From assembly GCA_051362555.1 (NCBI GenBank), contig CM120642.1:23250001-23314000 (forward strand): a stretch of DNA of 64,000 nt. The letters run 5' to 3'. Shown one piece after another: positions 6,176 to 48,320 of the stretch. The notes below the pieces were generated by a model. The model saw only the letters and a program-made list of their open reading frames with translations. It did not search any database and had not been told where the DNA came from. The position numbers and the translations under genes were made by a program. The first letter of the stretch is position 1, and the number at the start of each line of letters is the position of its first letter. Source of the stretch: Lingula anatina. Taxonomy: Eukaryota; Animalia; Brachiopoda.

Positions 6176-9100
6176 ATGGATGATTCAAAGATCAGCAAAG
6201 TTTTATTTCTTGTCGTCATCTCAACAGTACTTTGGCAAGGTACTGTTTCAGCAAACAAGACCGTCACAAACTTAACGTACCCACATGACGCTACTAAGGC
6301 TGTCCCTTATACAATGCCATTGGATTCAAAACGAGAACAAGAGGTTTCCACCAGCGCACATAACAGAAGAGTTGAAGAATATACTATAACCACGACACCA
6401 CTGTTAGCTGACCAAGATAAGTCAATTGGAGGGAAGGCTTTCCCTTGGAACGCAACAACGGCTCTCCTCACACTTCAGGACGGCATTACACAGAACGGGA
6501 ACGAAACCACATCAACACCACTAGATACAAAAGAACCAACCATTTTGTCAAACCCCTGGAACGGAACATCTTTTAATACAACTTCATCAAAAACCCTTTG
6601 TGCGACAGGGCCTTATGGATCTGACTTTATCCAGATATTTTGCTACTGCGACAGATTCTGCAACGTTTTTGAGGATTGCTGTGAGCCATACCACCCTTGC
6701 AACAGAAGTTCAACAAACGCTGAACACGTAGCGCTTTCTAATGAGATAGATATTCGACGAAATAATGTTGACTGCATGATGCATTCTCTTGACTCCAGAT
6801 CTTTGATGGGTTTGAACATTAAATTCTATTGGATGGTAATGTTTTGTCCAAATTCCTGGCTTAATGATACAACACGAGCCAGATGTGAAAATCGTACTTC
6901 TGGCGATGACATTGAGCGCCATCTTCCCGTTTCTGACCCCGCAACAAAACTGACATTTCGAAATAGGTACTGTGCAATGTGCCACAGTTTTGAAAAATAC
7001 GATAATTGGTCCCCTATAGTAACTTGCGACAAATATGTGACCAGTACCGCGTTGAATATCAGTGCAATGACGCGCACACCCGATGTTTTGAAGGGTGTTA
7101 GGGAGAACAGCGGCTGCATGATTTATTTCGAGCCACCAGCAACCATCCCTGGAAGACGGTGTGTTCCAAATGTAGAACCCCAAAGAAGCAATTTGAACTG
7201 GATCACCGAAAATCATTGTAACCAAAACACTGACCCTAAACACGCGAAACTTTGCTCTTCTGGACCACCATTGTTCACTTCTGTTATTTCAGCCGTAGGA
7301 CAAGAGATTTATATGAGAAACGTATTCTGTTGGAGGTGTCTATTTGGCAGTGACGTCACACTGAGGGTGGAGTCGTGTACTTCAGATATGGGTATGTTTG
7401 TTTGTCTAATTTTTGTCTGTTTGTTTGTCTGTTTATAAGATGCCAGAAGAGAAAAAATATTATACCTTTTGAGGACATTGCCTTTAACAAAATGTATAAA
7501 CATGACAAATATATATATATTTATGTCACAGGCCAGATCCCATTCTAGTCCAATTACTAACTGACTAGGCCAGACCTCAACTAGGATCTGGTCTAGGCCA
7601 GATCCCAATTGGGTCTTTGCATTGTAAACAGCATAGTGAGCATGTTTATTGTCCAAGTTATTTACAGGTGAGCTGCCAGTTTGTTTGCATGGTATGTGTG
7701 GTTAAATTTTGGATGTTATAGATCAAGGAATATCATATAAAACTAACAATGATGACGATGACGCTTTTTTAAGACTATTGCATAAAAATTTAAAGAAAAA
7801 AATATTGATTAGAACAAATACCACCCAAAGTTAAAACATATTTTTAAAGAACAAAAATCTTCGACTGTCCCAATTTTCAATTTAATTCTTAATTTTTACC
7901 ACGTCTTTAAACTACGTAAAAAGTTGTAATTGGTAATGTGTGTTCCGATAACGTACTGTTTCGGGTCATTTAATTTTAGTTTATATACCGCGTTCTGATA
8001 TATTTTATAGCGATTCAGTCATGGTAAATTATACATGACGTAAGGATATTTTTATAAATATGTAAAATGTAACTCAAGGGGCTTTGCGTCATGAATAATA
8101 CTACGTAACGTATGTTCCCCAGAACATTGTCAGAATGTTTCATTTTGTCCAAGTACTTGGTCCTATAGAAAACAGTATTTTCTGTTGCTGATCGAAAAAT
8201 ATGATGTGGTTCCATGATAGTTTGCAGAGGCGGATCCAGGATTATTTGAAGGGGGGCCTGCAGATGCGAAGCCGCCCCTCCCCCCTTGGATTGGGGTTAG
8301 GGGCCCGCTGAAGGGCACGGAAATTTTTTGGTATTTAAGAGAGCGAACGGTGCCAGTTGATACTGTTTAGAACTATGATTCAGCTAGTTTAAACTCTTAT
8401 TTCAACAGGGGACGATTGGTGTGATTATTTTTCAGAAATCGAAAGGGGGGTCGTGATCCCCCTGATACCTCTAAATCCGCCACTTACTGTGCCATTTTAA
8501 GGCACCCAAAAGTCAGCCATTTGGGTGACAATCTTAAGTAATAGCCAAACAGTAAATTGACAGTCTCGCCAGTGACGAATCAAGGATTATTTGAATGGGA
8601 GTCCGATATTTTTGGAATGACAGGCCGGGGAAAAGAAGCCGACCCTCGCCCCCTTGGAATGTTTTGGAGGGCAAACGCTGCCATTTGGTACGGTTTAGAA
8701 ATATGAATATGCTAATCAAAATTCTAATTTCAAGAGAAGAAAATTAGTGTTATCTGTTTTCAGAAACCCCTAACTCCACCACTGTATGTCTGGTGTTATG
8801 GCGGGCAAGCTACTGAATTAATTCAAGTTTGGTCGCCTATATTGATACACACACTGGACAATAGAAGTGTCACCCCTACTGAACCAATACTATGGGGGAG
8901 ATAAATGACTGTGGAATGATATGCTCCTGGTATCATTTTATTAACATCAAATTTCACAAAAAAAATCACAAAATGATAACAAAATATGCACTCTACCAAA
9001 ATATGCAGTTTCAAGTCCAAAATTAGTACTTAGTGGCATAGCCACGTGACCTAATAATAGGTGCCAGTCTACGAGGCAAGGATTCATATAATTGTCTGAT

Positions 9101-11766: not shown

Positions 11767-13633
11767 AAATTTGAAATTGGTGAAAAACTGACTATTTTTT
11801 CGAACAGGTTTGATGGTCCAGTGATCTCACGACAGTTAAAATACGTCGTCCAGATATGACTTTGTCACCCTGGTTAAATTCACTGCAAGTAAGACATTGT
11901 TGTGTAATATTATAGTAATGTGTTCTATTTACAGGTGCTTCAAGGGTTTTTGATCCATTTGGTTTGGGTGCGCTGATTAATCCATCACCAAATTCAGAGT
12001 CCTGTAGCCAAGAGGGCAGCCAGGTGAGTAACCACCCGTATCTCTCTATCTCTCTCTCTCATACAGACTTGACACTTATTGGGAATATTTTTCCAAATCG
12101 TTTTTTTTTTACTACTTTTCTGACTAAATAATAAAGAAAACAAGGATTTAAATCGTGTTTTATTAAGTTACTATTTTAATAATCATATAAATATGATTGT
12201 GACAGTTCTTTAACTCAGTTAATCTAATTAAGAAAACAAAAGGCATGACTGATTCTAAGTCATACAACAGACATTAAAAGTGCTATTTCGATCTTTATAT
12301 TTTCCAAATTATTATCTGTGAAAGAGTTATACACCCCAAAAAAGACGTTTACATCGGTGTCTAGTCACAGCAACGGTCAGTGGTGCGTCTGGCCTTATCT
12401 GGCTGCTACCAGGGTTCTGTAGAAACAAGGTATTCCTTATGAGAGGTTTCTTGGAGTCTGATCTGGAATAATATTCCAGGCCACTGGTCGGGGCTTGTCC
12501 CATTTGGTTCAGGTTTGTTGTACGACTAGTAGACAGATGATTTGGAGAATACCGGCTACCCACAGATTGTCTATAGGCCTAGGCTTCAAATCTGGTGAGC
12601 TTGATGACTGTGGTAGCTTGACCCTCCCCAGTGAAAATTTGTCTCATTTAACGCTCACTTACGGTTCTCAAGCTGTCCTAGAACCTAATGTTATTCTCTT
12701 TTAATTAAAAAAAGTTCTTAATTTGTTCTAGGACATTCTGAAGGTCTTCCCCAAAACAGTTCTCGAACTGTTACATTCAACAACATTAGAACTGTAAAAA
12801 AATTCATCAAATGTTCTAGAATAGATTGAGAACCGTAAGTGAATGTTAAATGAGATAAATTTTCCCAGGGGCTTGGTTCTGCAAGTAATCTGCAAATGCA
12901 AGTGCTCTATGTGGACAAATTGTTCCTAAGGAGTCCTCTAGCAAATGGAAGGCATTTAATTACCAGATTATGCCTGTATTTGATCTGGTTCAGGTTCCCA
13001 TGACTGCCAAAGAAGTTTAGCACCAACGAGGATTCCCCTCCAAATACAGAGCAACTCACGCTTAGTCGCAGACCTCTTCTAGATGTCTGTGAACTCTACT
13101 TTGACTACCATGGAAGTACAGTTGAAATCTGACCTCTCAAGTGAAAACCATAGGTTTCTAGTGTTGTGCCCAGAAACGTTGATGGTTCCGAACTAATTGC
13201 AGTAATAGACGAAGACACTGCGCTATCCACAGAGGCTTTCTCAAAGATTACCTGGTATAGTAGTCTGCCAAAACCAGTCCGACGGTCACAAAGAGCATTG
13301 AGAAATATTTTCTGGTAGCAATCTGTCCATCAGTGTGCCTGGACCACATGTTCATAGTCATATTTGGACCAGCCCAAAAGTACTACCCAAATAAATCACC
13401 GCATATTTCGTAATGTAGCAGTGCTTCAGACAGGGCAGTCAGGTAATTAGGACTAACACACCTTACTACACATTTCTCTATCCACACATTTCACATGAGA
13501 TACACGTTATAAAAATGAATAACACTTTTACCTAGATAAACCCTTTTATTTAAATCAAAATGGTCCATATTAAATGTCAAGTCTGTACCTGTATATATAA
13601 AGCTATTTTAATGTGTCCCCCGCAAAGGTGCGC

Positions 13634-14331: not shown

Positions 14332-14382
<51 letters not shown>

Positions 14383-15343
14383 TTGCAAATTAGACAGTCA
14401 AAAAAGCAAAATTTTGCTTGGGAACCGGGTTAGTCGGTTTCAGCATGCCAATATGCTTATAAGCCTGGTTCCCAACTTTTACCCCAAAATGCCCCTACTA
14501 TTCATATTTTGTGGAAATCTCAGTATATTTTAGGATAACCGTCTTAACATGGAGAAAGCGTCTAAAAACATCTAGAAATCTATCAGTGAGTAAATACCTA
14601 TTTGAATATGTCATTCCGTGTTTTACTCCAGAAGTGCCTTACCCAAACTGTTATCAAGCACATTATATTTGTATATGTAATAGTGTTTAATTTTGTTACA
14701 GGGCATCTGTGCTGACGAAAAGGACCAATGCTCAAAACCAATATTATTAATCTTCAATATGGATTTCCCTTTGAAACTGGCACTCAGTGCCGATGGTCCC
14801 CTCAACATTACACAAGTTGGTGGAGTTTGCCCGGTTTTCAAAGACGGTATTTCTAAACTATTCAAGAGTGATCCTCCCCCTTCCCTCACTGCTATACTGG
14901 GTACGAGATGGCTGTTCTTAAGTCCCTACAACGGCCGCTGTGCCGAGCTATCAGCTAATGACACTGACGGAGAATGGCACAATTCTAGCGTTCTGGCAAC
15001 ACTGTCCAGTCAGGTGAGATTGAGGAAAGAGATAAGAAGTTATCGAGAAGGCTTTAAAATGTTCGAATCTTTTCGCTATAAACTTGACATCGCGCTGCGT
15101 GCAAATGCTAAGTTTATAACGTTTAGGAATGCCGATTATCAAATTCATCTTTCCCGCTATGAAGAAAACCATTGCGCCAACATGGATAAATCTCTTGAAT
15201 CAAATGTTGAAACACCGATAGAGGATACAGATTATGAAAATGTCTTGGTTTCTAGTGGTAACCAGTGGTTAATTCAGTGGGGATTTGCAGTTTGTGCTTT
15301 AGGTGTCTTTGTGAGCACGGGCGTGTTGATTCGAAGTGGCTGA
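6176..15343 (+). CDS. SMB-like Cys-rich cell-surface glycoprotein, probably GPI-anchored, paralog 1 (~648 aa; exons 6176-7391, 11935-12023, 14702-15343)
   Basis: Signal peptide MDDSKISKVLFLVVISTVLWQGTVSA. Thr/N-glycan-rich stalk. CYCDRFCNVFEDCC (SMB-like), YWMVMFCP and PVSDPATKLTFRNRYCAMCH motifs. GT-AG introns of phase 1 and 0 join in frame via an 89-nt exon 2 (GASRVFDPFGLGALINPSPNSESCSQEGSQ). Ends in SSG + hydrophobic tail. Confidence 0.85.
8225..8484. mobile_element. hAT-like MITE (CAGxGGCGGAT...ATCCGCCACT ends)
   Basis: Short TIRs CAGAGGCGGATCC / AATCCGCCACT with a GC-rich interior. Related copies at 8570-8784, ~10648-10795 and, inverted, ~29160-29310. Confidence 0.6.
8570..8784. mobile_element. 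Second, diverged copy of the hAT-like MITE
   Basis: Starts CAGTGACGAATCAAGGATTATTTGAA and ends CTCCACCACTG. Interior aligns with 8225-8484. Confidence 0.55.
8848..10214 (-). mobile_element. Tc1-family (DD34E) DNA transposon, full length, with disrupted transposase
   Basis: Perfect 29-bp TIRs CACACACTGGACAATAGAAGTGTCACCCC (8848-8876 and 10186-10214). TA target duplication at 8846-8847 and 10215-10216. Confidence 0.95.
9023..10032 (-). pseudogene. Tc1 transposase pseudogene
   Basis: N-terminal HTH region with GRPRKT (ORF 9628-10056). FSDE motif near 9560-9580 lies outside both ORFs. C-terminal QDDNAPCH...WPAQSPGANIIE has exactly 34 residues between D and E (ORF 9023-9388). Split by stop/frameshifts. 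Confidence 0.9.
10990..11300 (+). repeat. Dispersed repeat fragment shared with ~56100-56460
   Basis: GCAGTCT(T)AAAGCTCTTTTATGGCTGAT and AATGCCA..ATATAGTTTCAA blocks occur in the same order at both sites. Confidence 0.55.
12626..12871. mobile_element. MITE with ~45-bp TIRs, possibly EnSpm/CACTA-like
   Basis: CCCCAGTGAAAATTTGTCTCATTTAACGCTCACTTACGGTTCTCAA pairs with TTGAGAACCGTAAGTGAATGTTAAATGAGATAAATTTTCCCAGGGG. 2-bp flanking duplication CT. Confidence 0.7.
13633..13668. repeat. (GA)n microsatellite
   Basis: Read directly. Confidence 0.9.
13989..14495. mobile_element. Foldback/MITE-like element with ~115-bp TIRs and an internal (TTTA)n tract
   Basis: GGGGCATTCTGGGGTAAAAGTT...CTGTCTAATTTGCAA (13989-14104) is inverted at 14383-14495 (...AACTTTTACCCCAAAATGCCCC). 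(TTTA)n at ~14270-14383. Confidence 0.75.
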
Positions 15344-18224
15344 AAATGTAGATTGAAGATGCATTGTCGTTTTTGACAGATATCCCTGACTCAGCAATGT
15401 CGTCGTTAGTCTTGATGTAAATAGAATTTGTTTGGCTTAGTAGTTTATTGTTGTTCAGCACTACATTATAAACTTTGCGCTTTATCATTGAACAAAAAAA
15501 CTTTGTGTTTATATATGTTTCGGTTTTTCCATTGAGACGCAAATGGTAATTTTCGCAAAAATAAGTTTTTTTTTAAATATTAGTTGATGGAATGCGACTA
15601 AGGACTCTACAAACATACACAGAAACATTTAATGATATGGATATTCAGTACAATATCATAATATAATAAATACACTACCTATATGTCAACCTTTGTCATT
15701 TTCTTTACTAAGTTTCAGGCAAGTTAGAAATTCTTTGTTTATCTAATCACTCACCGCTGGTGCAAAATGTAAAATAACCTTGCAATCAAGAACAAAATGT
15801 ATTAATTAACCTACAACTAACGTCATATTAAAAAATATAATTCATATGAAAGATAAAGCCTGCTTTGTGCTGTACTTCCTTTCCGAATATACGGACCCCC
15901 ACCGGCCCTAAAAGACGCTACCGATATCCATCTGGATGCTCATATGGACGTTAAAGCATTACAAAGCAATCGGCAAAGTTCTTGCAAACGACCACTGAGA
16001 TAATCGTATTTGTTGCATGCCAATTATAAAAATTCAATATACATCCAACCTACATTAACCTTCTTCTTAACTATAAAGTGGAATAGTTCAGGAGATAAAA
16101 CAGCCTAGACCTAAGCTCATTTTACAGCTTCCTTTTCATTTTGATTCTACACCCCCCCAATTATTTATTTATTAATTTATTTAGTTATTATTTTTATACC
16201 AATGGCTTTTTGTTAATAATAAAAATACCAAGTTGATATTTGACAAAGAATATTTTCCAAAACATTTTCTTAGAATTTTCAAGGGCGTGTCCATGGGAAA
16301 ACCAGTCCAAATGGGGAAAATGCGACAAGGTGGAAATTATGGATATACACCATATTTGGTGTGCTTGCATGATCATCTATATGTTTAATATATGAGGCTA
16401 CAATATTTCCCTTAACAAATCCCTATATTTTATGTACATTTGACCAGTGGCGTTCTAGGGGATTAGTACCAAAATTTCAGCTAAATACAGGGCAATTTTG
16501 ATTTGTCTTACAGTTTATGCCAGTGTCAGCAAATGATTTCGTTTGATGTCATATTCTCTATTCATAAATAAATGCTTCTCGCTGTTCTACACCTTTTCTG
16601 TTGTAACAGTTAGACTATACCCCAAGTTCTTGAATTTTCATTCCATGGGATGGCGGGTAATAATTACAGTTCACGGGAAATAAAATCACATTAAATAAAA
16701 GCTTTATTCAAATCTCACTGATAATGCGCGTCGAAAATCCGGGTATAACGACTTATACCTGTTACTTCAGCTATCTCTGTTAAATTTTAATAAACAACCG
16801 GTATAAACTATTGTTAGTTGTACCAATTTTCTTGTTAACACACACAACTTACACTTTTTAAAAACCATGTGAAACGAAAGTGCTGCCACCGGATCAACAC
16901 AACGTCTATAACCAACAAGTCAGAAAGTTTCGTTTGCAAACATTATAGGAAATCATATATCAACACGCTGTAGACACACACGGGCCATGAGACACATGAC
17001 CTTTAACGAACACATCCAAATGCTAACTAGGGGTCACAATAAATTTGATGTCATTTAGTGGTGTGTTTTCAATTTTGTGGACATTTCTTGACCTTTGCAG
17101 AAATCACAGTGAAACATAAAATTTGAGGGAGTACATGTGATAAAAGTGAATAAATGGTATAAAATATGGATATCTTCTACGAATTTTCTGTACCATTAAT
17201 CAATTCTTTAGCATAATTCAATAACATAATGCAGCACAGATGGTTTCCAGAAATTACACTAAAATTACTATGACTATAATATCTGATCAAATTGTGTGAA
17301 TTTTTTCTCTGGTTTGCATATAAAAATGTTTTTTTTTTTAAATTCCCTTCACTTATTTGCCATCGTCACTGTAATAAAACAAAATGCAATCCCGTTTCTG
17401 ATCTGTATGCATATGGCACACTAAAGGACTCTCTTACCATTTCCATTTGCAAACAAAGTGCCATCTTGGGGTTTTGTTTCAAAACTACCAAGATAAAGTG
17501 TACATTGTGTCACTTTGCTTTCTTATCCATAAATATGTGGCCATTGTATGCTGTTTTGACTCCTACCAAGTTCTCCATTACCAGTGCCTGTTTGTTAAAG
17601 CCGTTGTCTAACCTGCTGAAAGTTTTTTACGGGACAACCCAACCTTGTGACAATTCTGCGGGGAAAACTCCTTCCTGTGTCAAACGACAATTTACTTCGC
17701 TCACTTAGGAACCACTTTTCTAAAACAGAAGAGAAATAAAGACGTTCAATGGTCACGCTACAGTTAACGTACTACGAATGGCAGCCCTAAATTCAGATGC
17801 CTATTACCGCCACGGTTAGGTAATGAAAACATTTAATCATTTTCCCCTTGTAACATTGTACATAAATGTGTCAGGGGTGACAGTTTTTGGTAGGTGGGTA
17901 CAGCAATATGTAAAATGCTTAACCACAACACTCAGAAAAAAAGATACGTCAGTCTCAACAGAGAACATAAGGGGTTTTTAATGTCACCCCAACATTGTGC
18001 AATTGCGTTACAAGCACACTACTGGGCTCATACTTAATCTACCACCAACATTGGTGTGACAACACATTATATGAGGGAACATAAATAACATTTTTACAAA
18101 ACAAGAATATTCAGTTGCTTACATTAAAATCGCACTCTTTCTGTTTTTGTAACAATGCTGCACAATAAGTTCAAACGAAACAAATCATCACAAAAGCCCA
18201 AAATTCGTATGAGATAAAAAAAAA

Positions 18225-20525
18225 AAACGCGTTACTGTGTAGTGTAGTTAGTCTCAAGTTACGCGTTGAAACTTGGCATGCCCTGTCAATCAGTCACGCA
18301 TTTTGCATAGAATTACAGAAAAGATGCGCCGTGGGATAAGTATCACTATAGCAGTTAGGGGTCAAAACACATAAGTTATTGTTTCATGTCCTGTCAATAA
18401 GTTATTCAACGTACAATGTAATACGACAATTCTGGTTGTCGATCCTTTACAGAAAAGTTTTACAGAGAAACTCAACGTGTCTGGAAACAAAGTTTAGAAG
18501 TATGTCAAAGAAGTTCAAACAGCTAGGACACGAGTTAAGCATACGTTCAGGGTTTAAAACAAGATAGTGATGATATAATCCAATTACTTAGCTAGACCTC
18601 TAATCGGCATTTCGATAAATGGAGATGGACCAGACGAAACATCCCTACTGTATCGTGTCCATGAATTAACATATCACTCGTTGGGCAGATCAAAACATCA
18701 CACGAGTTACCTTGTTTTATCAAATGTGCATGCATACCATTGAACAAAATTGAGCCTTGTTAATTTCACACATTTCACATATGCTATTTTTCCATGCCCT
18801 GTCAATCAGTCACGCATGTTGCACAGAATACAGAAAAGATTAACCATGGAATACGTATCGCTATATCAGTTAGCTACAGGTAGGTGTCAAGATACGACAA
18901 TTTTCTTGTTGATCTTTCACAGAATGTTTTACGGAGGAACTCAGCTTGTTTGGAAACAAAGTTTCAAAGAATGTCATAGAAGGTTAAACAGCCAGGGACC
19001 GAGTTAATCATACGTTCAGGGTTTAAGAAAAGATAGTCATGATAAAAAACCAATTAGTTACACCTCTAATCCCAATTTTTATAAACGGTGCTGGACCACA
19101 AGAAACATCCCTACTATATCATGTCCATGAACATATCACACGTCGGGCAATTAAAAAAAATCAAACGAGTTACCTTGTTTTATCAAATTTGCATTGAACA
19201 AGATGGGGCCTTGTTAATTTCACACATATATTTTACATATGCGAGGGTTACATCAGCAAGAAATCGTCTTTAAAAAGAAACGTGTTACCGTATTGTGTTG
19301 TTAGCCTCAAAACCCCGTACGATCTTGGCATGCCCTGTCAATCAGTCACGCATTTTACATAGAAATACAGGAAAAGATGAGCCGTGGAATAAGCATGACT
19401 ATATCAGTTAGGTGTCAAAATACATAAGTTATTGTTTCATGTCCTGTCAATAAGTCATCCACTCAATCGATGTAATACGACGATTTTGTTTGTAGATCCT
19501 TCACAGAAAAGTTTTACAGAGAAACTCAACGTGTCTGGAAGCAAAGTTTAGAAAAATGTCAAAGAAGGTCAAACAGGCCCGAGTTAACCATACGTGCAGG
19601 GTTTTAAAACATGACAGTCATGATATAATCCAATTACTTAGTTAGACCTCTAATCGCCATCTCGATAAATGTAGATGGGCCAGACGAAACATACCTGCTG
19701 TAAAGTGTCTATCACTCATTGGGCAATTAAAAACATCACACGAATTACCTTGTTATACGTAATACGACGATTTTGTATGTCGATCCTTCACAGAGAAGTT
19801 TTACAGAGAAACTTAACTTTTCTGGAAACAAACTTTAAAAGAATGTCAAAGAAGGTCAAACAGCCTGGGCCCGAGTTAATCATACCTCCAGGGTTTCAAA
19901 ACAAGAAAGTCATAATATAACCCAATTAGTTACACCTCTAATAGCCTCTTTTGTAAATGGAGCTGGACCAGACGAAACATCCCTACTATATCATGCCCAT
20001 GAACATATTACACTGGCCAATTCAAAACATCAAACGAGTTGCCTTGCTTTATCAAATTTGCATGCACACCATTGAACAACTTTTGTTAATTTCACACAAA
20101 CATTTTACGGAGAAACTTAACTTTACTGGAAACAAAAAGAACACGTTACCGTGTTATGTAGTTAGCCTAAAAATAAACAGTACCATTTTGCCATGCCCTG
20201 TCCATCAGTGACGCATGTTGCATAGGACAGAAAAGATGCACTGTGGAATAATTATCACTATATCAGATCTGAGTCAAAATACATAAGTAATTGTTTCATG
20301 TCCTGTCAATAAGTCATCCACTAAATCGATGTAATATGACGATTTTGTTTGTCAATCCTTCACAGAAAGGTTTTACAGAGAAACTCAACGTGTCTGGAAA
20401 CAAAGTTTAGAAAAATGTCAAAGAAGGTCAAACAGGCCCGAGTTAATCATACCTGCGGGATTTTAAAACAAGAAAGACATAATATAATCCAATTACTTAC
20501 TTAGACCTCTAATCGCCATTTTTGA
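18225..20525 (+). repeat. ~590-bp satellite array upstream of paralog 2 (about 5 diverged, partly deleted monomers)
   Basis: Recurrent CCCTGTCAATCAGTCACGCA (18281, 18797, 19333) and TTGTTTCATGTCCTGTCAATAAGT (18379, 19432, 20291). Confidence 0.9.
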
Positions 20526-21289
20526 AAACGCACTTAAGACTGAACAGTTAGCCGTGACAAAAACACCCGTGATGTTTTGCAATGATTTTCCAGACGACCA
20601 AACAACAATACAAAAATAACTGGGTTATGCATTTTGATTGTGGACTACCTCTAAAAATGCATATATGGGGTATTGATTTTATTCTCTATCAGGGTCACAA
20701 AGAGATTTTCGACTAGATATACACAATAAACATTTATTTCTCAGGCAAATTCTGTGCACAAAGCTGAATTGACTCATCACACATCTAGCCGGTGGTGGAG
20801 AGTAGATTAATTTGAGGTAAATTAAGCTGTCATTTAGGACTAAGCACTGTTTACTTACTTCAATTTTAGGACCAAATGCAGCACAAGCGTTTATTTATGT
20901 TAATTACCCAACTATGAGCAGAATGGTTGAACAGATTTTGCACGTTCCACTTACTTGTATGTAAATGGAATGTCGTGTAAGTTCCTTCACTTATTCGGCC
21001 TCGTCACTGTAATAAAACAAAATCCAATTCAGTTTTCTTTTTTTGCTTTGAATGTATTATAAACTACGTTTTGTTTTTTCTTTTTCATGTTCTTTTCTTT
21101 TTTATACTATGAAAAAGATGTGAAAATGTGTTACAATGTCACTCTGTAACACATGCTTCAGTTTAAAAAGAGAGAACTTTTGAAACTCTAGTCCTCCTTA
21201 AACTTTACACAAAACCATTGTGTTGGCCACCAGAGTACATATACATGCACATACCGGGGGTATTCATGTACATTAAAATGTATGTATAA

Positions 21290-34484: not shown

Positions 34485-36098
34485 ATGGATGATACAAAGA
34501 TCAGCAATGTTCTATTTGTTCTCGTCATCTCAATGATGGTTTGGCAAGGCACTGTTTTGGCAGCTGTTCCAGCGAACAAAACCGTCACGAACTTAACCTA
34601 CCCACATGAGGCTACTATGACTGTCCCTTATAAAACGCCATTGGATTCAAAACGAGAACAGGTTTCCACCAGCGCATATAACAGAAGAGTTGAAGAATAT
34701 ACTATAGCCACGACTCCACTGTTTACTGACCAAGATAAGTCAACTGGAGGGAAGGCTTTCCCTTGGAACGCAACAACTGCCCTCCTCACACTTCATGATG
34801 GCATTGCACAGAATGGGGATGAAACCACATCATCACCACTGGATACAAAAGAACCAACCATTTTGTCAAACCCTTGGAACGGAACATCGTTTAATATAAC
34901 TTCATCAAAAACCTTTTGTGCGACAGGGCCCTATGGATCTGACTTTATTCAGATATTTTGCTACTGCGACGGATTTTGCAACATTTTTGAGGACTGCTGT
35001 GAGCCATACCACCCTTGCGAACATGATGAACACCTAGCGTTTTCTTACGAAATAGATATTCGACGAAATGATGTTGACTGCATAATGCATTCTCTGGACT
35101 CCAGATCTTTGCCTGGTTCCAGCAACAATTTCTACTGGATGGTAATCTCTTGTCCAACCACATTGCTAAATGAAACAATACGAGACAGATGTGAAAATCG
35201 CAGTGCTACCGATGACATTGAGCGCCATCTTCCCGTTTCTGACCCCGCAACAAAACTGACATTTCGAAATAGGTACTGTGCAATGTGCCACAATTTTGAT
35301 AAATACGATAATTGGTCCCCTATCGTAACTTGCGACAAGTTTGTGACAAGTAGCGCAATGAATATCAATGGAATGATGCACACAGCCGATGTACTGAAGG
35401 TTGTTAGGGAGAACAGTGATTGCATACTTTATTTCGAGCCACCGGCAACTATTCCAGGAAGACGGTGTTTCCCACATGGGGAAGCCCATGGAAACAAGTG
35501 GCTTAATGAAAATGATTGTGACCAAAACGCTGACCCTACATATAGGGAACTTTGCTCTTCTGGTCCACAGTTGTTTACCAAATCAATTTCAGCAAGAGGA
35601 CAAGTGTTTTACTTGAGGAACGTATTTTGTTGGAAGTGCCTGTATAGCAGCGACGAAAGACTGAGGGTTGAGCCGTGTCCTTCAAATATGGGTTTGTTTT
35701 TCTGTCTAACCCTTGTCTGATAGTATATTTGCCTGTTTGAATGATGCCAAAAATATTTTTTCATAATAAAAATAATAATATATTCTCAACCGCTACTGGA
35801 AGTGACGAAATGTTTATTATGCCAAATGGGAAGCCAAGGACTCTCCTGTAAAGTTAAAATTGGTGAAAACCCCGAATATTATTTCAGAATAGATTACATG
35901 TGCCAGTGAAATGTTTAACTGACATCACAACCAATCACTGTATGTAATACACCGTTTTTGTATTACGATTTTATCGTTCTTTATTTGTAGGTGCTGTAAG
36001 GTCCTTTGATCCATCTGGTTTAGGTATGCTGATTAATCCATCATCAAATACAGAGTCCTGTAGACATAAGGCTAGTCAGGTCAGTTATCACAAGCATG

Positions 36099-36130
<32 letters not shown>

Positions 36131-38143
36131 GATAGTTTAGTACTTGGCGGGGATCATAGAACTTATAAAGAGGAGGTTATGTAGCATATATATTACAAGT
36201 AAGGTTGAAATCTCTAGCCCCATTTCTTCTGATGTTCAATTTCACTTAACACAAATTTCTGCACCTCCCTGTGTTGTGCTTACTTTATAAAAGTGGTTTA
36301 TATCTCCTCAGGAACAAGCAAAAATCTAGTGGGTTTAAAATGATTTCAGGGAAAGTATGGTTATCAAAGAAACGGTTTTCAAGTTATTAAGAGAGGGGTA
36401 AATGGCGTAAAATTTTGGTTGGCTGTTCTTAATGCCTTTGTAAATATTTCCTGTGATTGGTGAAACATTAGCGCTTACGCGAGCCTTTGTAATTTTGTCC
36501 TTCACCATTCACACTTTCTATGTTATCCCGATAATGTGTTTTAATTTTTCTTGATCCATTAAACTGTGCCCTTCATTAAGGCAAATTAGAGAGAACTTTT
36601 CTTGGTTTTTTCTTCATGCAAAAAAAATAAATAAATAAATAAAAAAAATAATAATAAATAAAAAATAGATGCTGAAAAGTGCCCCCTCAATTAGGCAAAT
36701 AATTGAAATAACTTTTTCTTGGTCTTATTTTTGAGTAGATATGCCAATAAACGGCCTTACAATTTGTTTTTTCAATGAAGACTTACATATTCTAGAAGTT
36801 ATTAACTTTTACTGTTAGCGAGTCTTATCGTATGTTTACATCGGCACTGATAACACACGACAGTAATTATATAGCCTGATAGTTCTGCAAAATGTAAATT
36901 CAAGGAATATACATCTGCACAGTAGTAGTAGAGATAATAGTAATGTAACTGAATTTCGTGAAAGTTTATAAGGAGACATAACGCATCATTGCATTGTTTG
37001 TTTATAGTACTGTCGATCGCTATATGACCCATGACGATTTGATATCTACCGTTACTTAAACCTGATTCGATTGTTTCAACTCTAAATTATGCATTTTTAT
37101 TGTTTAATTACATAAAACTTCAAATATGGTTTTGAAAAACTTTAAATATTTTGGTACCTTTGTTAAGTCATTTACTCGTTCTTATATAGTATGATTCAAA
37201 TCCTGTGAGATTTTTATTTACCATGTTTTCTAATTTCAGTAATATGGTGACTTAAATCAATATCTCTGTTATTCATAAGGATCATTATGACAATTAACTT
37301 AATGATATTTAATGTTTGACAGGACACCTATTTAAATTAAATTACAGATGGGTTCATTTAAGGGGTGAACAAGCATCGATAAATCATTGAATAAATAGCT
37401 ATTTCACTACGCCATTCCATGTTTAACTGTGAGAGTGCTTTCTCTAAAGTCCTTATCGGTTAATAACACTATATTTATAATTAGTAATGTGTATTATTCT
37501 GTTACAGGACATCTGTGCCGACGAAAGCGACCAATGCTCAACACCAATATTATCAATCTTCAATATGGATTTCCCTGTGGAACTGGCACTCAGTGCCGAT
37601 GGTCCTCTTAATATTTCGCAAGTTCGTGGAGTTTGTCGGTTTTTGAGAAGCGATATTTATGAGCGTTTCACAATTTCTCCTCCACCATCCCTCTCTGCCA
37701 TACTGAGTATGAGATGGAAGTTCTTGAATCCCCATTTCAGCCACTGTGCCGTACAATCAGCTAATGACACTGACGAAGAATGGCACAATTCTAGCGTTCT
37801 AGCAGTACTCACCAGTCAGGTGAGACTGAAGGAAGAGATCAAGAATTATCGAGAAGGCCTTAAAATGTTTGAATCTTTTCGAGATGAACTTGACATAGAG
37901 CTGCGTACGAATACCATGTTTATTTCGTTTGGCAGTGTTAATTATCAAATTACTGTTCTCCGCGATGTGATAAATCCTTGCGCCAATGTGGAGAAACCTC
38001 TTGAATCCAATGTTGAAACAACGACAAAAGATGCACATGGAAATTCCATGGTTTCTGGTGGTAATCATTTTTGTCATTGGGCATTTGCAATGTGTGCTTT
38101 TGGTGTCTTTGTGGGCATGGGCGCGTTTGCTCCAAGTGGCTGA
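34485..38143 (+). CDS. SMB-like Cys-rich cell-surface glycoprotein, paralog 3 (~643 aa; exons 34485-35691, 35991-36079, 37508-38143)
   Basis: Same exon structure and phases. CYCDGFCNIFEDCC. Exon 2 GAVRSFDPSGLGMLINPSSNTESCRHKASQ. Hydrophobic C-terminal tail after SGG. Confidence 0.87.
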
Positions 38144-41504: not shown

Positions 41505-44010
41505 ATATAAATTGAGATGGACTGGACGAAGCATCCCTACTGTATCATGTCCATGAACATACCACTCGTTGGGCAATTCAAAATATCAAACGCGTTGCCT
41601 TGTTTTATCAAATGTGAGTGCATACCATTGAACAAAATTGAGCCTTGTTAATTTCACACATAAATTTTACATATACGAGGGTTACATCAGCTCGAAAATC
41701 TTCTTTTAAAAAACGCGTTACCGTGTTGTGTAGTTAGCCTCAAGAAAACCCTTACGAATTTGCAATGCCCTGTCAATCAGTCACGCATTTCGAATAGAAA
41801 TACAGAAAAGACGAGCTTTGGATTAAGTTTCACTATATCAGTTAGGTGTCAAGATATACAAGCTATTGTTTCATGTCCTGTCAATAAGTCATCCATTCAA
41901 TCGATGTAATACAATTTTATTTTTCGATCCTTCACAGAAAATTTTACAGAGAAACTCAACGTGTCTGGAAACAAAGTTTAGGAGAATGTCAAAGAAGGTC
42001 AAACAGGCCCGAGTTAATCATGCTTTCAGGGTTTTAAAACAAGAAAGTCATGATATAATCCAATTACTTAGTTAGACCTCTGTTGCCATTTTGGTAAATG
42101 GAGATGGGCCAGACGAAACATCCCTACTATATCATGTTTATGAACATATCACTCGTTGGGCAATTCAAAACATCAAACGTGTTACCTTGTTTTATCAAAT
42201 GTGAATACACACCTTTGAACAAGATTGAACAAGTTAATTTCAAACATACATTTAACATGTACGAGGATTACGTCAGCGCGAAAGTCTTCTTTAAAAAAAA
42301 ACGCGTTGCCGTGTGGTGTAGGTAGCCTAAAAAACCCACACGATCTTGCCATGCCCTGTCAATCAGTCACGCATTTCCCACAGAAATACAGAAAAGATGA
42401 GCCGTGGAATAATCATCACTATATCAGTTAGGGGTCAAGATACGTAAGTTATTGTTTCATGTCCTGTCAATAAGTCATCCACTCAATCGATGTAATACGA
42501 CGATTTTGTTTGTCGATCCTTCACAGAAAATTTTACAGAGAAACCCAACATGTCTGGAAACAAAGTTTAGAAGAATGTCAAAGAAGGTCAAACAGGGCCG
42601 AGTTAATCATACTTTCAGGGTTTTAAAACAAGTAAGTCATTATATAATATAATTACTTAGTTAGACCTCTATTGCCATTTTGGTAAATGGAGATGGGCCA
42701 GACGAAGCATCCCTACTATATCATGTTCATGAACATATCACTCGTTGGGCAATTCAAAACATCAAACGCGTTACCTTGTTTTATCAAATGTGAATGTACA
42801 CCATTAAACGAGATTGGGCCTTGTGAATTTCACACATACATTTTACATATACGAGGGTTACATCAGCGCGAAAATGTTCTTTTAAAAAAACGCGTTGCCG
42901 TGTTGTGTAGTTAGCCTCAAAAAACCCTTACGAATTGGCAATGCCCTGTCAATCAGTCACGCATTTCGCATAGAAATACAGAAAAGACGAGCTTTGGATT
43001 AAGTTTCACTATATCAGTTAGGGGTCAAGATACGTAAGTTATTGTTTCATGTCCTGTCAATAAGTCATCCATTCAATCGATGTAATACGACGATTTTGTT
43101 TGTCGATCCTTCACAGAAAATTTTACAGAGAAACCCAACGTGTCTGGAAACAAAGTTTAGAAGAATGTCAAAGAAGGTCAAACAGGGCCGAGTTAATCAT
43201 ACTTTCAGGGTTTTAAAACAAGTAAGTCATTATATAATATAATATAATTACTTAGTTAGACCTCTATTGCCATTTTGATGAATGGAGATGGGCCAGACGA
43301 AACATCCCTACTATATCATGTTCATGAACATATCACTCGTTGGGCAATTCTAAACATCAAACGCGTTACCTTGTTTTATCAAATGTGAATGTACACCATT
43401 AAACGAGATTGGGCCTTGTGAATTTCACACATACATTTTACATATACGAGGGTTACATCAGCGCGAAAATGTTCTTTTAAAAAAACGCGTTACCGTGTTG
43501 TGTAGTTAGCCTCAAAAAACCCTTACGAATTTGCAATGCCCTGTCAATCAGTCACGCATTTCGCATAGAAATACAGAAAAGACGAGCTTTGGATTAAGTT
43601 TCACTATATCAGTTAGGTGACAAGATATACAAGCTATTGTTTCATGTCCTGTCAATAAGTCATCCATTCAATCGATGTAATACGATTTTATTTGTCGATC
43701 CTTCACAGAAAATTTTACAGAGAAACTCAACGTGTCTGGAAACAAAGTTTAGAAGAATGTCAAAGGAGGTCAAACAGGCCCGAGTTATTCATACCTTAAG
43801 GGTTTTAAAAACAAGAAAGTCATGATATAATCCAATTACTTAGTTAGACCTCTAATCGCCATTTCAATAAATGTAGATGACCAGACGTCCATGAACATAT
43901 CACTCGTTGGGCAACTCAAAACATCAAACGCGTTACCTTGTTTTATCAAATGTGCGTGCACACCACTGAACGAAATTGAGCCTTGTTAATTTCACACATA
44001 CATTTTATGT
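41505..44010 (+). repeat. ~590-bp satellite array upstream of paralog 4 (~4.3 monomers)
   Basis: Monomer starts at ~41509, 42096, 42685, 43280, and partial at 43869. Confidence 0.95.
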
Positions 44011-44563
44011 TTCCTTTAGTAAAAACGTGACCTTTCAAGCTGTGCTTGTCACAACTGATATATCCAAGAAGGATCCCTAAAATTTGGAGGAGTAAGGCTT
44101 TTTTTTTTTTTACTTCTCCAAGCCAAAATGGTATTTCAGAGAGGTTGGAATAGAATGAATGGTGTAAACCCTTTACCTACTTTGGGCTGTACAGGGGTAG
44201 GAAAGCTACGGCAGTTATGTTAGAGTGCCTGGAATCTTCCCGATCCCGTACTTGGGTTCGTACTTGGTTCTGGTGATGGTAAGATATTACTTCTCGAAGT
44301 AAGTTTAAGAACCCGCCACAGTGGTGAACTGATCACATAGCACCTTCTTTACAAGGCAATAATTATGCTTATCAAGGGAACAGATCAGTCCAATCACAAT
44401 GCAACAAAGAGTCGGTCAGGTGAGTCCAAGGGTTACGACGAAATGGTTTTGTAATCAAACTGAGGTTTCTATTGGAGACAAAAGCAAAGCCATTGTCTTA
44501 TGATGGACAATTCTAATAGGTTCTGATAAGAACAATGGGAGGAGCATTTCAGTTGCAAATAAC

Positions 44564-44571
44564 TATTTAAA
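44564..44571 (+). promoter_or_regulatory. TATA-like box of paralog 4
   Basis: TATTTAAA conserved across paralogs. Confidence 0.6.
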
Positions 44572-44687
44572 GCGCTATGGTATTTGTAAAACGCACTGCA
44601 TTGAAAATTATTGGATTAAGTAAAACAAAGGTAAAGGAGCTTGGAGGCATCTTTATGCTTTTGAATATTTCCAAGTCGGTTGTCAAT

Positions 44688-46301
44688 ATGGATGATACAA
44701 AGATCAGTAATGTTCTATTTGTTCTCGTCATCTCAATGATGGTTTGGCAAGGCACTGTTTTGGCAGCTGTTCCAGCGAACAAAACCGTCACCAACTTAAC
44801 CTACCCACATGAGGCTACTATGACTGTCCCTTATAAAACGCCATTGGATTCAAAACGAGAACAGGTTTCCACCAGCGCATATAACAGAAGAGTTGAAGAA
44901 TATACTATAGCCACGACTCCACTGTTTACTGACCAAGATAAGTCAACTGGAGGGAAGGCTTTCCCTTGGAACGCAACAACTGCCCTCCTCACACTTCATG
45001 ATGGCATTGCACAGAATGGGGACGAAACCACATCATCACCACTGGATACAAAAGAACCAACCATTTTGTCAAACCCTTGGAACGGAACATCGTTTAATAT
45101 AACTTCATCAAAAACCTTTTGTGCGACAGGGCCCTATGGATCTGACTTTATCCAGATATTTTGCTACTGCGACGGATTTTGCAACATTTTTGAGGACTGC
45201 TGTGAGCCATACCACCCTTGCGAACATGATGAACACCTAGCGTTTTCTTACGAAATAGATATTCGACGAAATGATGTTGACTGCATAATGCATTCTCTGG
45301 ACTCCAGATCTTTGCCTGGTTCCAGCAACAATTTCTACTGGATGGTAATCTCTTGTCCAACCACATTGCTAAATGAAACAATACGAGACAGATGTGAAAA
45401 TCGCAGTGCTACCGATGACATTGAGCGCCATCTTCCCGTTTCTGACCCCGCAACAAAACTGACATTTCGAAATAGGTACTGTGCAATGTGCCACAATTTT
45501 GATAAATACGATAATTGGTCCCCTATCGTAACTTGCGACAAGTTTGTGACAAGTAGCGCAATGAATATCAATGGAATGATGCACACAGCCGATGTACTGA
45601 AGGTTGTTAGGGAGAACAGTGATTGCATACTTTATTTCGAGCCACCGGCAACTATTCCAGGAAGACGGTGTTTCCCACATGGGGAAGCCCATGGAAACAA
45701 GTGGCTTAATGAAAATGATTGTGACCAAAACGCTGACCCTACATATAGGGAACTTTGCTCTTCTGGTCCACAGTTGTTTACCAAATCAATTTCAGCAAGA
45801 GGACAAGTGTTTTACTTGAGGAACGTATTTTGTTGGAAGTGCCTGTATAGCAGCGACGAAAGACTGAGGGTTGAGCCGTGTCCTTCAAATATGGGTTTGT
45901 TTTTCTGTCTAACCCTTGTCTGATAGTATATTTGCCTGTTTGAATGATGCCAAAAATATTTTTTCATAATAAAAATAATAATATATTCTCAACCGCTACT
46001 GGAAGTGACGAAATGTTTATTATGCCAAATGGGAAGCCAAGGACTCTCCTGTAAAGTTAAAATTGGTGAAAACCCCGAATATTATTTCAGAATAGATTAC
46101 ATGTGCCAGTGAAATGTTTAACTGACATCACAACCAATCACTGTATGTAATACACCGTTTTTGTATTACGATTTTATCGTTCTTTATTTGTAGGTGCTGT
46201 AAGGTCCTTTGATCCATCTGGTTTAGGTATGCTGATTAATCCATCATCAAATACAGAGTCCTGTAGACATAAGGCTAGTCAGGTCAGTTATCACAAGCAT
46301 G

Positions 46302-46869: not shown

Positions 46870-48320
46870 GATGCTGAAAAGTGCCCCCTCAATTAGGCAA
46901 ATAATTGAAATAACTTTTTCTTGGTCTTATTTTTGAGTAGATATGCCAAAAAAAGGGCCTTACATATTCTAGAAGTTATTAACTTTTACTGTTAGCGAGT
47001 CTTATCGTATGTTTACATCGGCACTGATAACACACGACAGTAATTATATAGCCTGATAGTTCTGCAAAATGTAAATTCAAGGAATATACATCTGCACAGT
47101 AGTAGTAGAGATAATAGTAATGTAACTGAATTTCGTGAAAGTTTATAAGGAGACATAACGCATCATTGCATTGTTTGTTTATAGTACTGTCGATCGCTAT
47201 ATGACCCATGACGATTTGATATCTACCGTTACTTAAACCTGATTCGATTGTTTCAACTCTAAATTATGCATTTTTATTGTTTAATTACATAAAACTTCAA
47301 ATATGGTTTTGAAAAACTTTAAATATTTTGGTACCTTTGTTAAGTCATTTACTCGTTCTTATATAGTATGATTCAAATCCTGTGAGATTTTTATTTACCA
47401 TGTTTTCTAATTTCAGTAATATGGTGACTTAAATCAATATCTCTGTTATTCATAAGGATCATTATGACAATTAACTTAATGATATTTAATGTTTGACAGG
47501 ACACTTATTTAGATTAAATTACAGATGGGTTCATTTAAGGGGTGAACAAGCATCGATAAATCATTGAGTAAATAGCTATTTCACTACGCCATTCCATGTT
47601 TAACTGTGAGAGTGCTTTCTCTAAAGTCCTTATCGGTTAATAACACTATATTTATAATAAGTAATGTGTATTATTCTGTTACAGGACATCTGTGCCGACG
47701 AAAGCGACCAATGCTCAACACCAATATTATCAATCTTCAATATGGATTTCCCTGTGGAACTGGCACTCAGTTCCGATGGTCCTCTTAATATTTCGCAAGT
47801 TCGTGGAGTTTGTCGGTTTTTGAGAAGCGATATTTATGAGCGTTTCACAATTTCTCCTCCACCATCCCTCTCTGCCATACTGAGTATGAGATGGAAGTTC
47901 TTGAATCCCCATTTCAGCCACTGTGCCGTACAATCAGCTAATGACAATGACGAAGAATGGCACAATTCTAGCGTTCTAGCAGTACTCACCAGTCAGGTGA
48001 GACTGAAGGAAGAGATCAAGAATTATCGAGAAGGCCTTAAAATGTTTGAATCTTTTCGAGATGAACTTGACATAGAGCTGCGTACGAATACCATGTTTAT
48101 TTCGTTTGGCAGTGTTAATTATCAAATTACTGTTCTCCGCGATGTGATAAATCCTTGCGCCAATGTGGAGAAACCTCTTGAATCCAATGTTGAAACAACG
48201 ACAAAAGATGCACATGGAAATTCCATGGTTTCTGGTGGTAATCATTTTTGTCATTGGGCATTTGCAATGTGTGCTTTTGGTGTCTTTGTGGGCATGGGCG
48301 CGTTTGCTCCAAGTGGCTGA
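44688..48320 (+). CDS. SMB-like Cys-rich cell-surface glycoprotein, paralog 4 (~643 aa; exons 44688-45894, 46194-46282, 47685-48320)
   Basis: Protein matches paralog 3 except two substitutions seen in exon 3 (LSADG>LSSDG, NDTD>NDND). Confidence 0.87.

What the first reader, a model, noticed from the sequence alone, without database searches (positions are those of the whole stretch)
6176..48320. Tandem family of four 'GPCR-ectodomain-only' surface proteins with a GPI-type tail
Seen: four intact three-exon paralogs with signal peptide, Thr-rich stalk, CxCDxxCxxFEDCC, YWMxxxCP, PVSD...TFRNxYCAMCH, a third-exon domain and a terminal hydrophobic tail, followed directly by a stop. Known: this series of Cys motifs is typical of the N-terminus of SMB-containing Methuselah-like/adhesion class B GPCRs in marine invertebrates, where a 7TM normally follows. 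Inference: the ectodomain has been detached from signalling, membrane-tethered (probably by GPI) and amplified. It could be an undescribed family of decoy, adhesion or recognition molecules (immune, allorecognition, gamete or matrix).
Basis: partly seen in the sequence, partly recalled or inferred. Interest (0 to 1): 0.8.

Follow-up and report, generated by a model that had tools for sequence, protein, structure and literature searches.

The report
Receptor head on a lipid-type tail
Four side-by-side animal genes are predicted to make a surface protein that carries the outer head of a widespread invertebrate receptor family but lacks the membrane-signalling part and likely hangs on the cell by a lipid anchor; a lamp-shell protein has the same layout, so this is likely an old, undescribed non-signalling branch of the family, though its RNA was barely seen.

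Summary
Four tandem genes (A-D) splice in silico at GT-AG sites into open 643-649 aa frames, with dN/dS 0.5-0.6. C and D are 99.7% identical. Exon 1 holds a signal peptide, a Thr-rich tip and a somatomedin-B-like/DUF8401 cysteine module. That module is shared with class-B-type (Methuselah-like) GPCRs: 58 of the 150 best homologues carry 7tm_2. The window has no 7TM exon, and each frame ends in a GPI-like tail. (1) It is not the whole ectodomain: the receptors' juxtamembrane domain is missing, and exon 3 is predicted to be a ferredoxin-like, SEA-like domain (Z 6-6.5, not decisive). (2) The detachment is not local: the best hit, Lingula anatina XP_013391996, aligns across all three exons and ends the same way. 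(3) No hypervariability was found, and eight RNA runs gave at most trace exon coverage and no junction. Best reading: a GPI-tethered, non-signalling capture protein (co-receptor or decoy). The anchor and the function are inferred. The scan had no look-alike sequence; it noted relatives of the receptor family and an analogous GPR158-type case. New variant of a known kind.

The parts
6176..7391 (+). Gene A coding exon 1: signal peptide, Thr-rich tip, SMB-like unit, DUF8401-type Cys module
11935..12023 (+). Gene A exon 2 (89 nt; matches the conserved segment that follows the module in the Lingula protein)
14702..15343 (+). Gene A exon 3: predicted SEA-like domain, short linker, GPI-like tail, TGA
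21936..23160 (+). Gene B coding exon 1
   Evidence: trace sense-strand reads in run X2 (depth 0.4)
23606..23694 (+). Gene B exon 2
25101..25736 (+). Gene B exon 3 with tail and TGA; closer to C than to A
34485..35691 (+). Gene C coding exon 1
35991..36079 (+). Gene C exon 2
37508..38143 (+). Gene C exon 3 with tail and TGA
44688..45894 (+). Gene D coding exon 1 (protein identical to C in this exon)
46194..46282 (+). Gene D exon 2
47685..48320 (+). Gene D exon 3 with tail and TGA
5927..6163 (+). Predicted 5'-UTR intron of gene A (counterparts 21667-21923, 34217-34472, 44420-44675); not shown by RNA
18216..20528 (.). Diverged array of ~590-bp tandem repeats between A and B
29551..33809 (.). Array of ~590-bp tandem repeats just upstream of the gene C unit
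41507..44007 (.). Array of ~590-bp tandem repeats just upstream of the gene D unit; these arrays are likely substrates of unequal crossing-over

Best explanation
These are four tandem paralogues predicted to encode a secreted, likely GPI-anchored glycoprotein that carries the somatomedin-B/DUF8401 head of invertebrate Methuselah-like GPCRs on a predicted SEA-like pedestal, lacks any 7TM, and would likely work as a non-signalling capture protein (co-receptor or decoy) in a narrow tissue or stage. Steps: (1) shown in sequence: open frames under purifying selection, N- and C-terminal hydrophobic segments, 10-16 N-glycosylation sequons, no 7TM exon in the window; (2) shown by search: the module is shared with 7tm_2 receptors, and the whole layout is shared with a Lingula protein; (3) predicted: signal-peptide cleavage near residue 26, exchange of the last 27-29 residues for GPI at a small residue (S619/S620 in A), and a ferredoxin-like fold for exon 3; (4) inferred: the head binds an extracellular partner of the kind that the receptor heads bind, and, having no cytoplasmic part, it holds, presents or soaks up that partner; (5) inferred: the 7TM and juxtamembrane domain were lost long ago, and the local array grew by unequal crossing-over at the 590-bp repeats.
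For: Gene models and hydropathy; dN/dS 0.51-0.61 among A/B/C with intervals below 1. 411 homologues; the best, P0001, at E 1.6e-27, is Lingula anatina XP_013391996. The spliced models align with it over 512-539 columns across both junctions at 25-27% identity, E 1e-44 to 2e-49 in a 151-sequence database; exon 3 alone matches it at E 3e-7. 58 of 150 homologues carry 7tm_2; one is named 'Mth2-like'. The module is Pfam PF28443/DUF8401 in P0001; the family profile hits vitronectin SMB at E 6.9e-5. A 7TM profile finds nothing among 2127 window ORFs (best E 0.9) but finds 34 of 43 held-out 40-aa control pieces. The next gene downstream is an expressed Myb-domain gene. All four tails pass a hydrophobic-end rule passed by 25 of 2896 random ectodomain cuts. 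In the module tree the window genes join P0001 (SH-aLRT 92) inside a 16-row group with only one 7TM member (SH-aLRT 85). The three best Atlas clusters list DUF8401 and SMB but no 7tm_2. AlphaFold of P0001 gives a beta-alpha-beta-beta-alpha-beta domain at about 430-565, with matches to Gpr126 368-502 (Z 6.5, rmsd 3.7, 103 aligned) and the SEA domain 2e7v (Z 6.0, rmsd 2.9, 87 aligned).
Against: Eight RNA runs (6-30% of each read) show exon depth 0-0.4 and no listed junction, while the neighbour gene reaches depth 38-52 in X1; splicing and expression are unshown. No trained GPI or signal-peptide predictor was available; the rule is my own. The fold evidence is from the Lingula homologue (mean pLDDT 46; 50-68 in the domain); no match reaches Z 8, and a non-SEA channel domain ties for first place. 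Foldseek gave no match at E<=0.001. No ligand is known for these heads in the papers I saw, so 'capture protein' rests on analogy. Tree support is unstarred (<95), the tree is a quick one and is unrooted, so loss of 7TM versus independent reuse of the module is not settled. In a Lingula shell proteome the only peptide for the paralogue XP_013391426 is its C-terminal tail, which GPI processing would remove; that identification is very weak (1 spectrum, Q-value 1, 'only identified by site'). A strong donor-like site (CAG|GTGAGA) lies inside exon 3 of all four genes.
Confidence: 0.5

Rival explanations
1. Same genes and anchor, but a structural glycocalyx or matrix (possibly shell) protein that works like a small membrane mucin and has nothing to do with the receptors' ligands.
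For: Thr-rich tip, 10-16 sequons, SEA-like match including MUC16 (Z 5.3, rmsd 3.5, 91 aligned). The Lingula paralogue XP_013391426 is listed in a shell-matrix proteome (PMC13425148 supplement).
Against: The S/T-rich part is only about 110 aa, distal and not repetitive. The proteome entry is one spectrum with Q-value 1. Bulk structural proteins are usually abundant in RNA, and these were near absent in 8 runs, though the tissues are unknown.
Confidence: 0.2
2. The tail is kept as a single membrane span with a 3-residue inside end; the protein is a type I membrane protein without GPI.
For: The hydrophobic stretch is long enough to span a membrane. The one reported peptide of the Lingula paralogue is the tail itself (weak).
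Against: Hydrophobicity is moderate (KD19 1.65-1.76), small residues sit 27-29 from the end in all four and in P0001, and there is no basic stop-transfer cluster; B, C and D have no charge after the segment.
Confidence: 0.1
3. The array is largely silent or decaying, and C/D may be one gene assembled twice from two haplotypes.
For: Near-zero RNA in 8 runs. C and D differ by 6 coding bases and 0-8 bases per 400 over about 5 kb, no more than the allele differences seen in reads on the neighbour gene. dN/dS is rather high (0.5-0.6).
Against: No stop or frameshift in four genes; dN/dS below 1; a few sense-strand reads on A and B exons. C's 3' flank resembles B's (95%) more than D's (93%), as an unequal crossover would give.
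Confidence: 0.1
4. A fast-diversifying recognition family (immune, self/non-self or gamete).
For: Tandem amplification and mosaic exchange: B is A-like in the module (dS 0.18 against 0.35 to C) and C-like in exon 3 (dS 0.17 against 0.37 to A). Stage-limited expression would fit.
Against: dN/dS in the module is 0.41-0.54; no region with a usable number of changes exceeds 1 (ratios above 1 in the tail and exon 2 rest on 1-4.5 silent changes). Only four copies are seen here. Allelic polymorphism could not be read.
Confidence: 0.07
5. These are the front halves of GPCR genes whose 7TM exons lie elsewhere or are reached by alternative splicing.
For: Many relatives carry 7tm_2. A conserved donor-like site lies inside exon 3. 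Only 64 kb could be searched; no whole genome is held.
Against: No 7TM or juxtamembrane exon in the window. An expressed unrelated gene starts within 3 kb of D on the same strand. The part of exon 3 behind the internal donor is conserved as protein, also in Lingula, and the Lingula model ends the same way.
Confidence: 0.03

Closest known systems
Non-arthropod Methuselah-like / NvX / PARF1 class-B-type GPCRs with Somatomedin_B and DUF8401 (PF28443) (PMC4768249, parts 1-2 of 3 read; PMC3261222 and PMC2246102, passages read)
   Same: N-terminal SMB-like unit and Cys module; tandem expansion is reported for an octopus Methuselah-like group (PMC6408891, passages).
   Different: No 7TM, no cytoplasmic tail and no juxtamembrane domain; a separate exon-3 domain and a GPI-like end instead.
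Lingula anatina XP_013391996 (LOC106160040) and XP_013391426 (LOC106159647), uncharacterised
   Same: XP_013391996 has the whole layout, aligned across all three exons. XP_013391426 shares the module, a weak match to the exon-3 domain (pairwise E 0.001) and a hydrophobic end.
   Different: Only 25-27% identical; no function published (no main-text hit for these accessions); XP_013391426 lacks the N-terminus in its model.
SEA-domain surface proteins (Gpr126/ADGRG6, TMPRSS, MUC16)
   Same: Predicted ferredoxin-like extracellular domain near the membrane (Z 5.3-6.5). That Gpr126 368-502 is its SEA domain is recalled.
   Different: No Pfam SEA match; no G-SVVV self-cleavage motif (motif recalled; the matching place reads HNSSVLA); Z ties with unrelated ferredoxin-like domains.
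GPI-anchored receptor-head proteins: T-cadherin, TRAIL decoy DcR1, GFR-alpha co-receptors (recalled, not looked up); the scan's octopus GPR158-type case e1-9925796
   Same: A family's binding head on a lipid anchor with no signalling body; this is what it likely works like.
   Different: No homology; ligand and partner receptor unknown here.

Membership tests
Methuselah-like GPCR (non-arthropod, SMB type) | 7tm_2 domain | tested here: not met
   Two hydrophobic segments only; no 7TM exon among 2127 window ORFs, control 34 of 43 found; outside the window not searchable.
Methuselah-like GPCR (non-arthropod, SMB type) | SMB-like N-terminal unit | tested here: met
   Family profile led by gene A hits vitronectin SMB at E 6.9e-5. 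Degenerate: 7 Cys in the stretch printed, and no Pfam SMB hit for the window exons themselves at E<=1.
Methuselah-like GPCR (non-arthropod, SMB type) | DUF8401 (PF28443) Cys module | tested here: met
   By homology: a profile from 26 receptors scores the window proteins at E 1e-37 to 1e-38; P0001 carries PF28443. The local Pfam copy gave no such family, so the window protein was not scanned with it directly.
Methuselah-like GPCR (non-arthropod, SMB type) | Juxtamembrane domain before TM1 | tested here: not met
   A profile from 53 receptors finds 12 proteins outside its training set at E<0.001 but not A-D or P0001 at E<=10.
Arthropod Methuselah | Methuselah_N ectodomain (PF06652) | tested here: not met
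   No Pfam hit for exons 1 and 3 of A-C nor for 26 receptor relatives at E<=0.5.
Adhesion GPCR | GAIN/GPS domain plus 7TM | tested here: not met
   No Pfam hit in the window exons; none in 26 receptor relatives.
GPI-anchored protein | N-terminal signal, C-terminal hydrophobic end without cytoplasmic tail, small omega residues | tested here: met
   Hydropathy and own rule with background 25 of 2896; omega candidates S619/S620 (A), S621/G622 (B), S615/G616 (C, D).
GPI-anchored protein | Trained predictor score; actual GPI attachment (PI-PLC release) | not testable with these tools
   No NetGPI, PredGPI or SignalP available; no protein data for these genes.
SEA domain | Ferredoxin-like fold matching solved SEA domains | tested here: inconclusive
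   Lingula homologue model: Z 6.0-6.5 to Gpr126, 2e7v and TMPRSS6, tied with non-SEA folds, none at Z 8; Atlas neighbours TM 0.40-0.50.
SEA domain | Pfam SEA profile match and G-SVVV cleavage motif | tested here: not met
   No Pfam hit for exon 3; motif (recalled) absent.
Polymorphic recognition family | dN/dS above 1 or hypervariable stretches in the binding domain | tested here: not met
   Between paralogues 0.41-0.54 in the module; allelic variation not testable.
Expressed spliced gene | RNA reads across the junctions | tested here: inconclusive
   8 of 9 listed runs laid; depth 0-0.4 on exons, no junction listed; tissues unknown, 6-30% of each run read.

The most novel reading that the evidence does not exclude
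An ancient lophotrochozoan branch of the Methuselah-like family swapped the juxtamembrane domain and 7TM for a SEA-like pedestal and a GPI anchor. It forms a hidden tier of co-receptors or decoys that capture the still unknown ligands of these orphan receptors, and so offers a soluble, releasable bait for finding them.
Probability: 0.3. Interest if true: 0.7.

Novelty: new variant of a known kind. Interest (0 to 1): 0.48.

Why it matters
The SMB/DUF8401 receptors are an old, repeatedly expanded invertebrate GPCR group whose outer domains and ligands are largely unstudied (PMC4768249). A naturally 7TM-free, lipid-tailed version that is conserved between this animal and a brachiopod suggests that the head works on its own. 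It would give an easy reagent (head-Fc or PI-PLC-released protein) for ligand fishing and for a first structure of DUF8401. It also suggests that some of the 7TM-less database entries of this family are real genes and not broken models. Against high interest: loss of a signalling body with gain of GPI is a known evolutionary move, and neither function nor expression is shown.

Tried and rejected
No whole genome is held, so other copies and distant 7TM exons could not be searched. Pfam on exons 1 and 3 of A-C: no family. Word-index protein searches: nothing for exon 1 (99 candidates); only the two Lingula proteins already in the query for the exon-3 alignment; only P0001 for the whole alignment. 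PDB by sequence: nothing for exon 1 alone or the exon-3 profile; the receptor alignment hit only through its 7TM part in the 60 rows shown. Single-sequence fold of window exon 3 failed (pLDDT 31). Foldseek: no match at E<=0.001. The module was poorly modelled and barely tested by the fold search, so nothing is claimed about its fold. Profile-profile comparison of exon 3 with the inserts of long receptors: probability under 1% with shallow profiles, so whether some receptors carry the same SEA-like domain is open. A deeper whole-protein alignment misplaced the exon-3 rows. The careful tree did not finish; the quick tree is reported (75 rows: 57 7TM, 8 tail, 10 other; D, P0151 and the remaining hits left out). 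Holding all eight tail-bearing rows together was not rejected (p-AU 0.075), so one or several origins is open. Two-copy complex job on the module: no verdict, score 0.00, alignment not used. Literature: 'PF28443' 0 papers, 'DUF8401' 0, six accessions 0; combination searches listed no paper on a 7TM-less or GPI form, judged from listings and abstract starts. The library lacks most subscription papers, and supplements were searched for one paper only (PMC13425148); bioRxiv supplements are closed. Rejected: chance ORFs, a prokaryotic or viral origin, a canonical adhesion GPCR, and an insect-type Methuselah ectodomain.
Full report
1. What is in the sequence. Self-comparison located a short middle exon. 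Joining at GT-AG sites gives open frames of 648, 649, 643 and 643 aa, with intron phases 1 and 0 and an 89-nt exon 2 in every gene. Each protein has a hydrophobic N-terminus, a stretch of about 110 aa with 27-28% Ser+Thr, 27-28 cysteines, 10-16 N-glycosylation sequons, and one hydrophobic segment just before the stop. A, B and C are 70-78% identical; C and D differ at two residues. dN/dS among A, B and C is 0.51-0.61, with bootstrap intervals below 1, and 27 cysteine columns are invariant. A donor and an acceptor conserved upstream of the ATG suggest one more, non-coding exon (predicted only).

2. How the array arose. Arrays of a 590-bp repeat lie between A and B and in front of C and D. B is a mosaic: dS in the module is 0.18 to A and 0.35 to C, while in the exon-3 domain it is 0.37 to A and 0.17 to C, and B's 3' flank is 95% like C's. 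This fits unequal crossing-over or gene conversion (inferred). C and D differ by 0-8 bases per 400 over about 5 kb. That is a very young duplication or two haplotypes assembled in tandem; I could not tell these apart.

3. The exon-1 module. A full HMMER scan of 1.84 billion representatives gave 411 hits at E<=0.001. Of the best 150, 58 match 7tm_2 (cut-offs 1e-3 and 1e-4). Many of the other 92 look like partial models and are not evidence of a 7TM-less state; one (P0108) is unrelated. One receptor is named 'Mth2-like'. Twenty-six receptor relatives all match 7tm_2, 21 match Somatomedin_B at E<=0.5, and none matches GPS/GAIN or Methuselah_N. This agrees with published non-arthropod Methuselah-like, NvX and PARF1 receptors that carry SMB (PMC4768249, parts 1-2 of 3 read; PMC3261222 passages; PMC2246102 passages). 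The module is PF28443/DUF8401 in the best homologue. An 81-row family profile hits vitronectin SMB at E 6.9e-5. The window's own SMB is degenerate and has no Pfam hit.

4. It is not a split receptor. A 7TM profile built from 46 relatives finds nothing among 2127 window ORFs (best E 0.9), while 34 of 43 held-out 40-residue pieces are found. Within 3 kb of gene D's stop an unrelated gene begins on the same strand. It is lysine-rich, has a Myb domain and shows spliced reads. One caution: a strong donor-like site lies inside exon 3 of all four genes. The sequence behind it is conserved as protein, also in Lingula, so read-through to the tail is the better reading. Sequence outside the window could not be searched.

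5. It is not the whole ectodomain. The receptors carry a conserved domain just before TM1. Its profile finds 12 proteins outside the training set but not A-D or P0001. Exon 3 instead encodes another domain. AlphaFold on the Lingula homologue with a 9-row alignment gave mean pLDDT 46, and 50-68 over this domain, with the order beta-alpha-beta-beta-alpha-beta. VIA-align ranks Gpr126 368-502 (Z 6.5, rmsd 3.7, 103 aligned), a channel domain (Z 6.5, rmsd 3.1, 92), the SEA domain 2e7v (Z 6.0, rmsd 2.9, 87), an engineered carboxypeptidase (Z 6.0) and TMPRSS6 (Z 6.0, rmsd 3.1, 97) at the top; none reaches Z 8. Foldseek gave only weak matches, mostly ferredoxin-like, and the Atlas model gave TM 0.40-0.50 neighbours. 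'Ferredoxin-like, likely SEA-like' is the fair statement. Whether long receptors carry the same domain is open.

6. The layout is old. The best hit is Lingula anatina XP_013391996. It aligns with the spliced models over 512-539 columns across both junctions (E 1e-44 to 2e-49), matches exon 3 alone at E 3e-7, and has a signal peptide, a Thr/Pro-rich tip and a hydrophobic end without a cytoplasmic tail. This is the best independent support for the exon joins and for the terminal exon, although it is itself an automatic gene model. A second Lingula protein, XP_013391426, shares the module, a weak exon-3 match and a hydrophobic end. Scallop XP_069104868 and unnamed P0144 also pass the tail rule; Owenia CAH1773804 has a hydrophobic end but fell under my threshold. 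Four further rows pass the rule (P0021, P0091, P0141, P0148) and are likely receptors cut within a membrane span (inferred). The three best Atlas clusters (139, 149 and 52 members; commonest taxa molluscs and annelids) list DUF8401 and SMB but no 7tm_2. In a quick tree of the module the window genes join XP_013391996 (SH-aLRT 92) within a 16-row group that holds one 7TM row, flagged as a long-branch join. The tail label needs 4 changes on that tree, yet a single origin is not rejected (p-AU 0.075). Since receptors of this kind occur in cnidarians (PMC4768249), loss of the 7TM is the simpler reading, but it is inferred.

7. The tail. All four ends pass a simple rule (hydrophobic 13-mer near the end, at most 10 residues after it, at most 2 charges) that 25 of 2896 random ectodomain cuts pass. 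Small residues sit 27-29 from the end. With an N-terminal signal this is the usual pattern of a GPI signal (established knowledge). No trained predictor could be run. In the supplement of a Lingula shell proteome (PMC13425148; abstract, passages and supplement rows seen) the paralogue XP_013391426 is listed by one peptide, which is its C-terminal tail. The entry has one spectrum, Q-value 1 and the flag 'only identified by site'. If real, it would argue against GPI cleavage in that paralogue and for a shell link; I give it little weight either way.

8. Expression. Eight RNA runs from three studies were laid, 6-30% of each. On gene D (which would also collect C reads) depth was 0-0.1 in X1, X4, X7 and X9, while the Myb neighbour reached 38-52 in X1, about 3 in X4 and under 2 in X7 and X9. 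On A and B at 82% likeness, exon bins had depth 0-0.4 in X2, X3, X5 and X8; the traces in the stranded runs lay on the sense side. No predicted junction was among the listed joints (9 and 28 weaker joints were not shown). The genes are silent or very low in these samples; tissues are unknown.

9. How it likely works. The protein enters the secretory path, is glycosylated, loses its last 27-29 residues for a GPI anchor (predicted), and stands on a SEA-like domain with the SMB/DUF8401 head and a Thr-rich tip facing out. With no inside part it cannot signal alone. The simplest use of a conserved receptor head is to bind what such heads bind and to hold, present or remove it (inferred, 0.5). A structural mucin-like role (0.2), a retained membrane span (0.1), a silent array (0.1), a polymorphic recognition role (0.07) and a split receptor (0.03) are the rivals. 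Comparisons with T-cadherin, DcR1 and GFR-alpha are recalled, not looked up.

10. Novelty. No paper in the held library names PF28443, DUF8401 or six accessions of the homologues, and seven combination searches listed none on a 7TM-less form (listings only). The scan holds no look-alike sequence; it has notes on sea-urchin receptors of the same family and on an analogous GPR158-type head with a GPI-like tail (not checked here). The parts are known or catalogued and the move from receptor to GPI-tethered head is a known kind of event; this combination and its age seem undescribed. Verdict: real, new variant of a known kind, interest 0.48.

Noticed in passing
window about 51000 to beyond 57506, +: Expressed lysine-rich gene with a 294-bp coding tandem repeat (52751-53555) and a Myb domain exon at about 57351-57506; four introns seen in RNA. 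Looks like TTF1/DMTF1 (label recalled).
   Followed up: partly
window 8846-10216, -: Tc1/mariner element with terminal inverted repeats in intron 1 of gene A; transposase in two pieces (Pfam HTH_Tnp_Tc3_2, DDE_3). Related copies are transcribed (depth about 60 in X5), some with internal deletions.
   Followed up: partly
window 2694-4479, 18216-20528, 29551-33809, 41507-44007: A ~590-bp tandem repeat family sits upstream of each gene unit, with a diverged relative upstream of gene A; almost no RNA on it in the stretch laid.
   Followed up: partly
window 15014, 25413, 37820, 47997: A strong donor-like site CAG|GTGAGA in the middle of exon 3 of all four genes; use would cut the exon-3 domain and drop the tail.
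   Followed up: partly
window 21295-21466: Short palindromic (MITE-like) element just upstream of gene B, absent from the aligned upstream region of A; many reads from other copies.
   Followed up: no
proteins P0002, P0022, P0069, P0019: Relatives with two or more copies of the Cys module and no membrane segment (snails Batillaria and Pomacea, and unnamed records); three of them fall in the same tree group as the window genes. They may be secreted forms or partial models.
   Followed up: partly
protein P0144/P0151 (unnamed records): Module followed directly by a glycine linker and a hydrophobic end, placed among 7TM receptors in the tree: a possible independent receptor-head-with-tail gene.
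   Followed up: partly
window 13988-14496, 14259-14388, 50536-50646, 58775-59233: An inverted repeat pair and a TTTA microsatellite in intron 2 of gene A, its complement near 50536, and a 146-bp tandem repeat near 59000.
   Followed up: no
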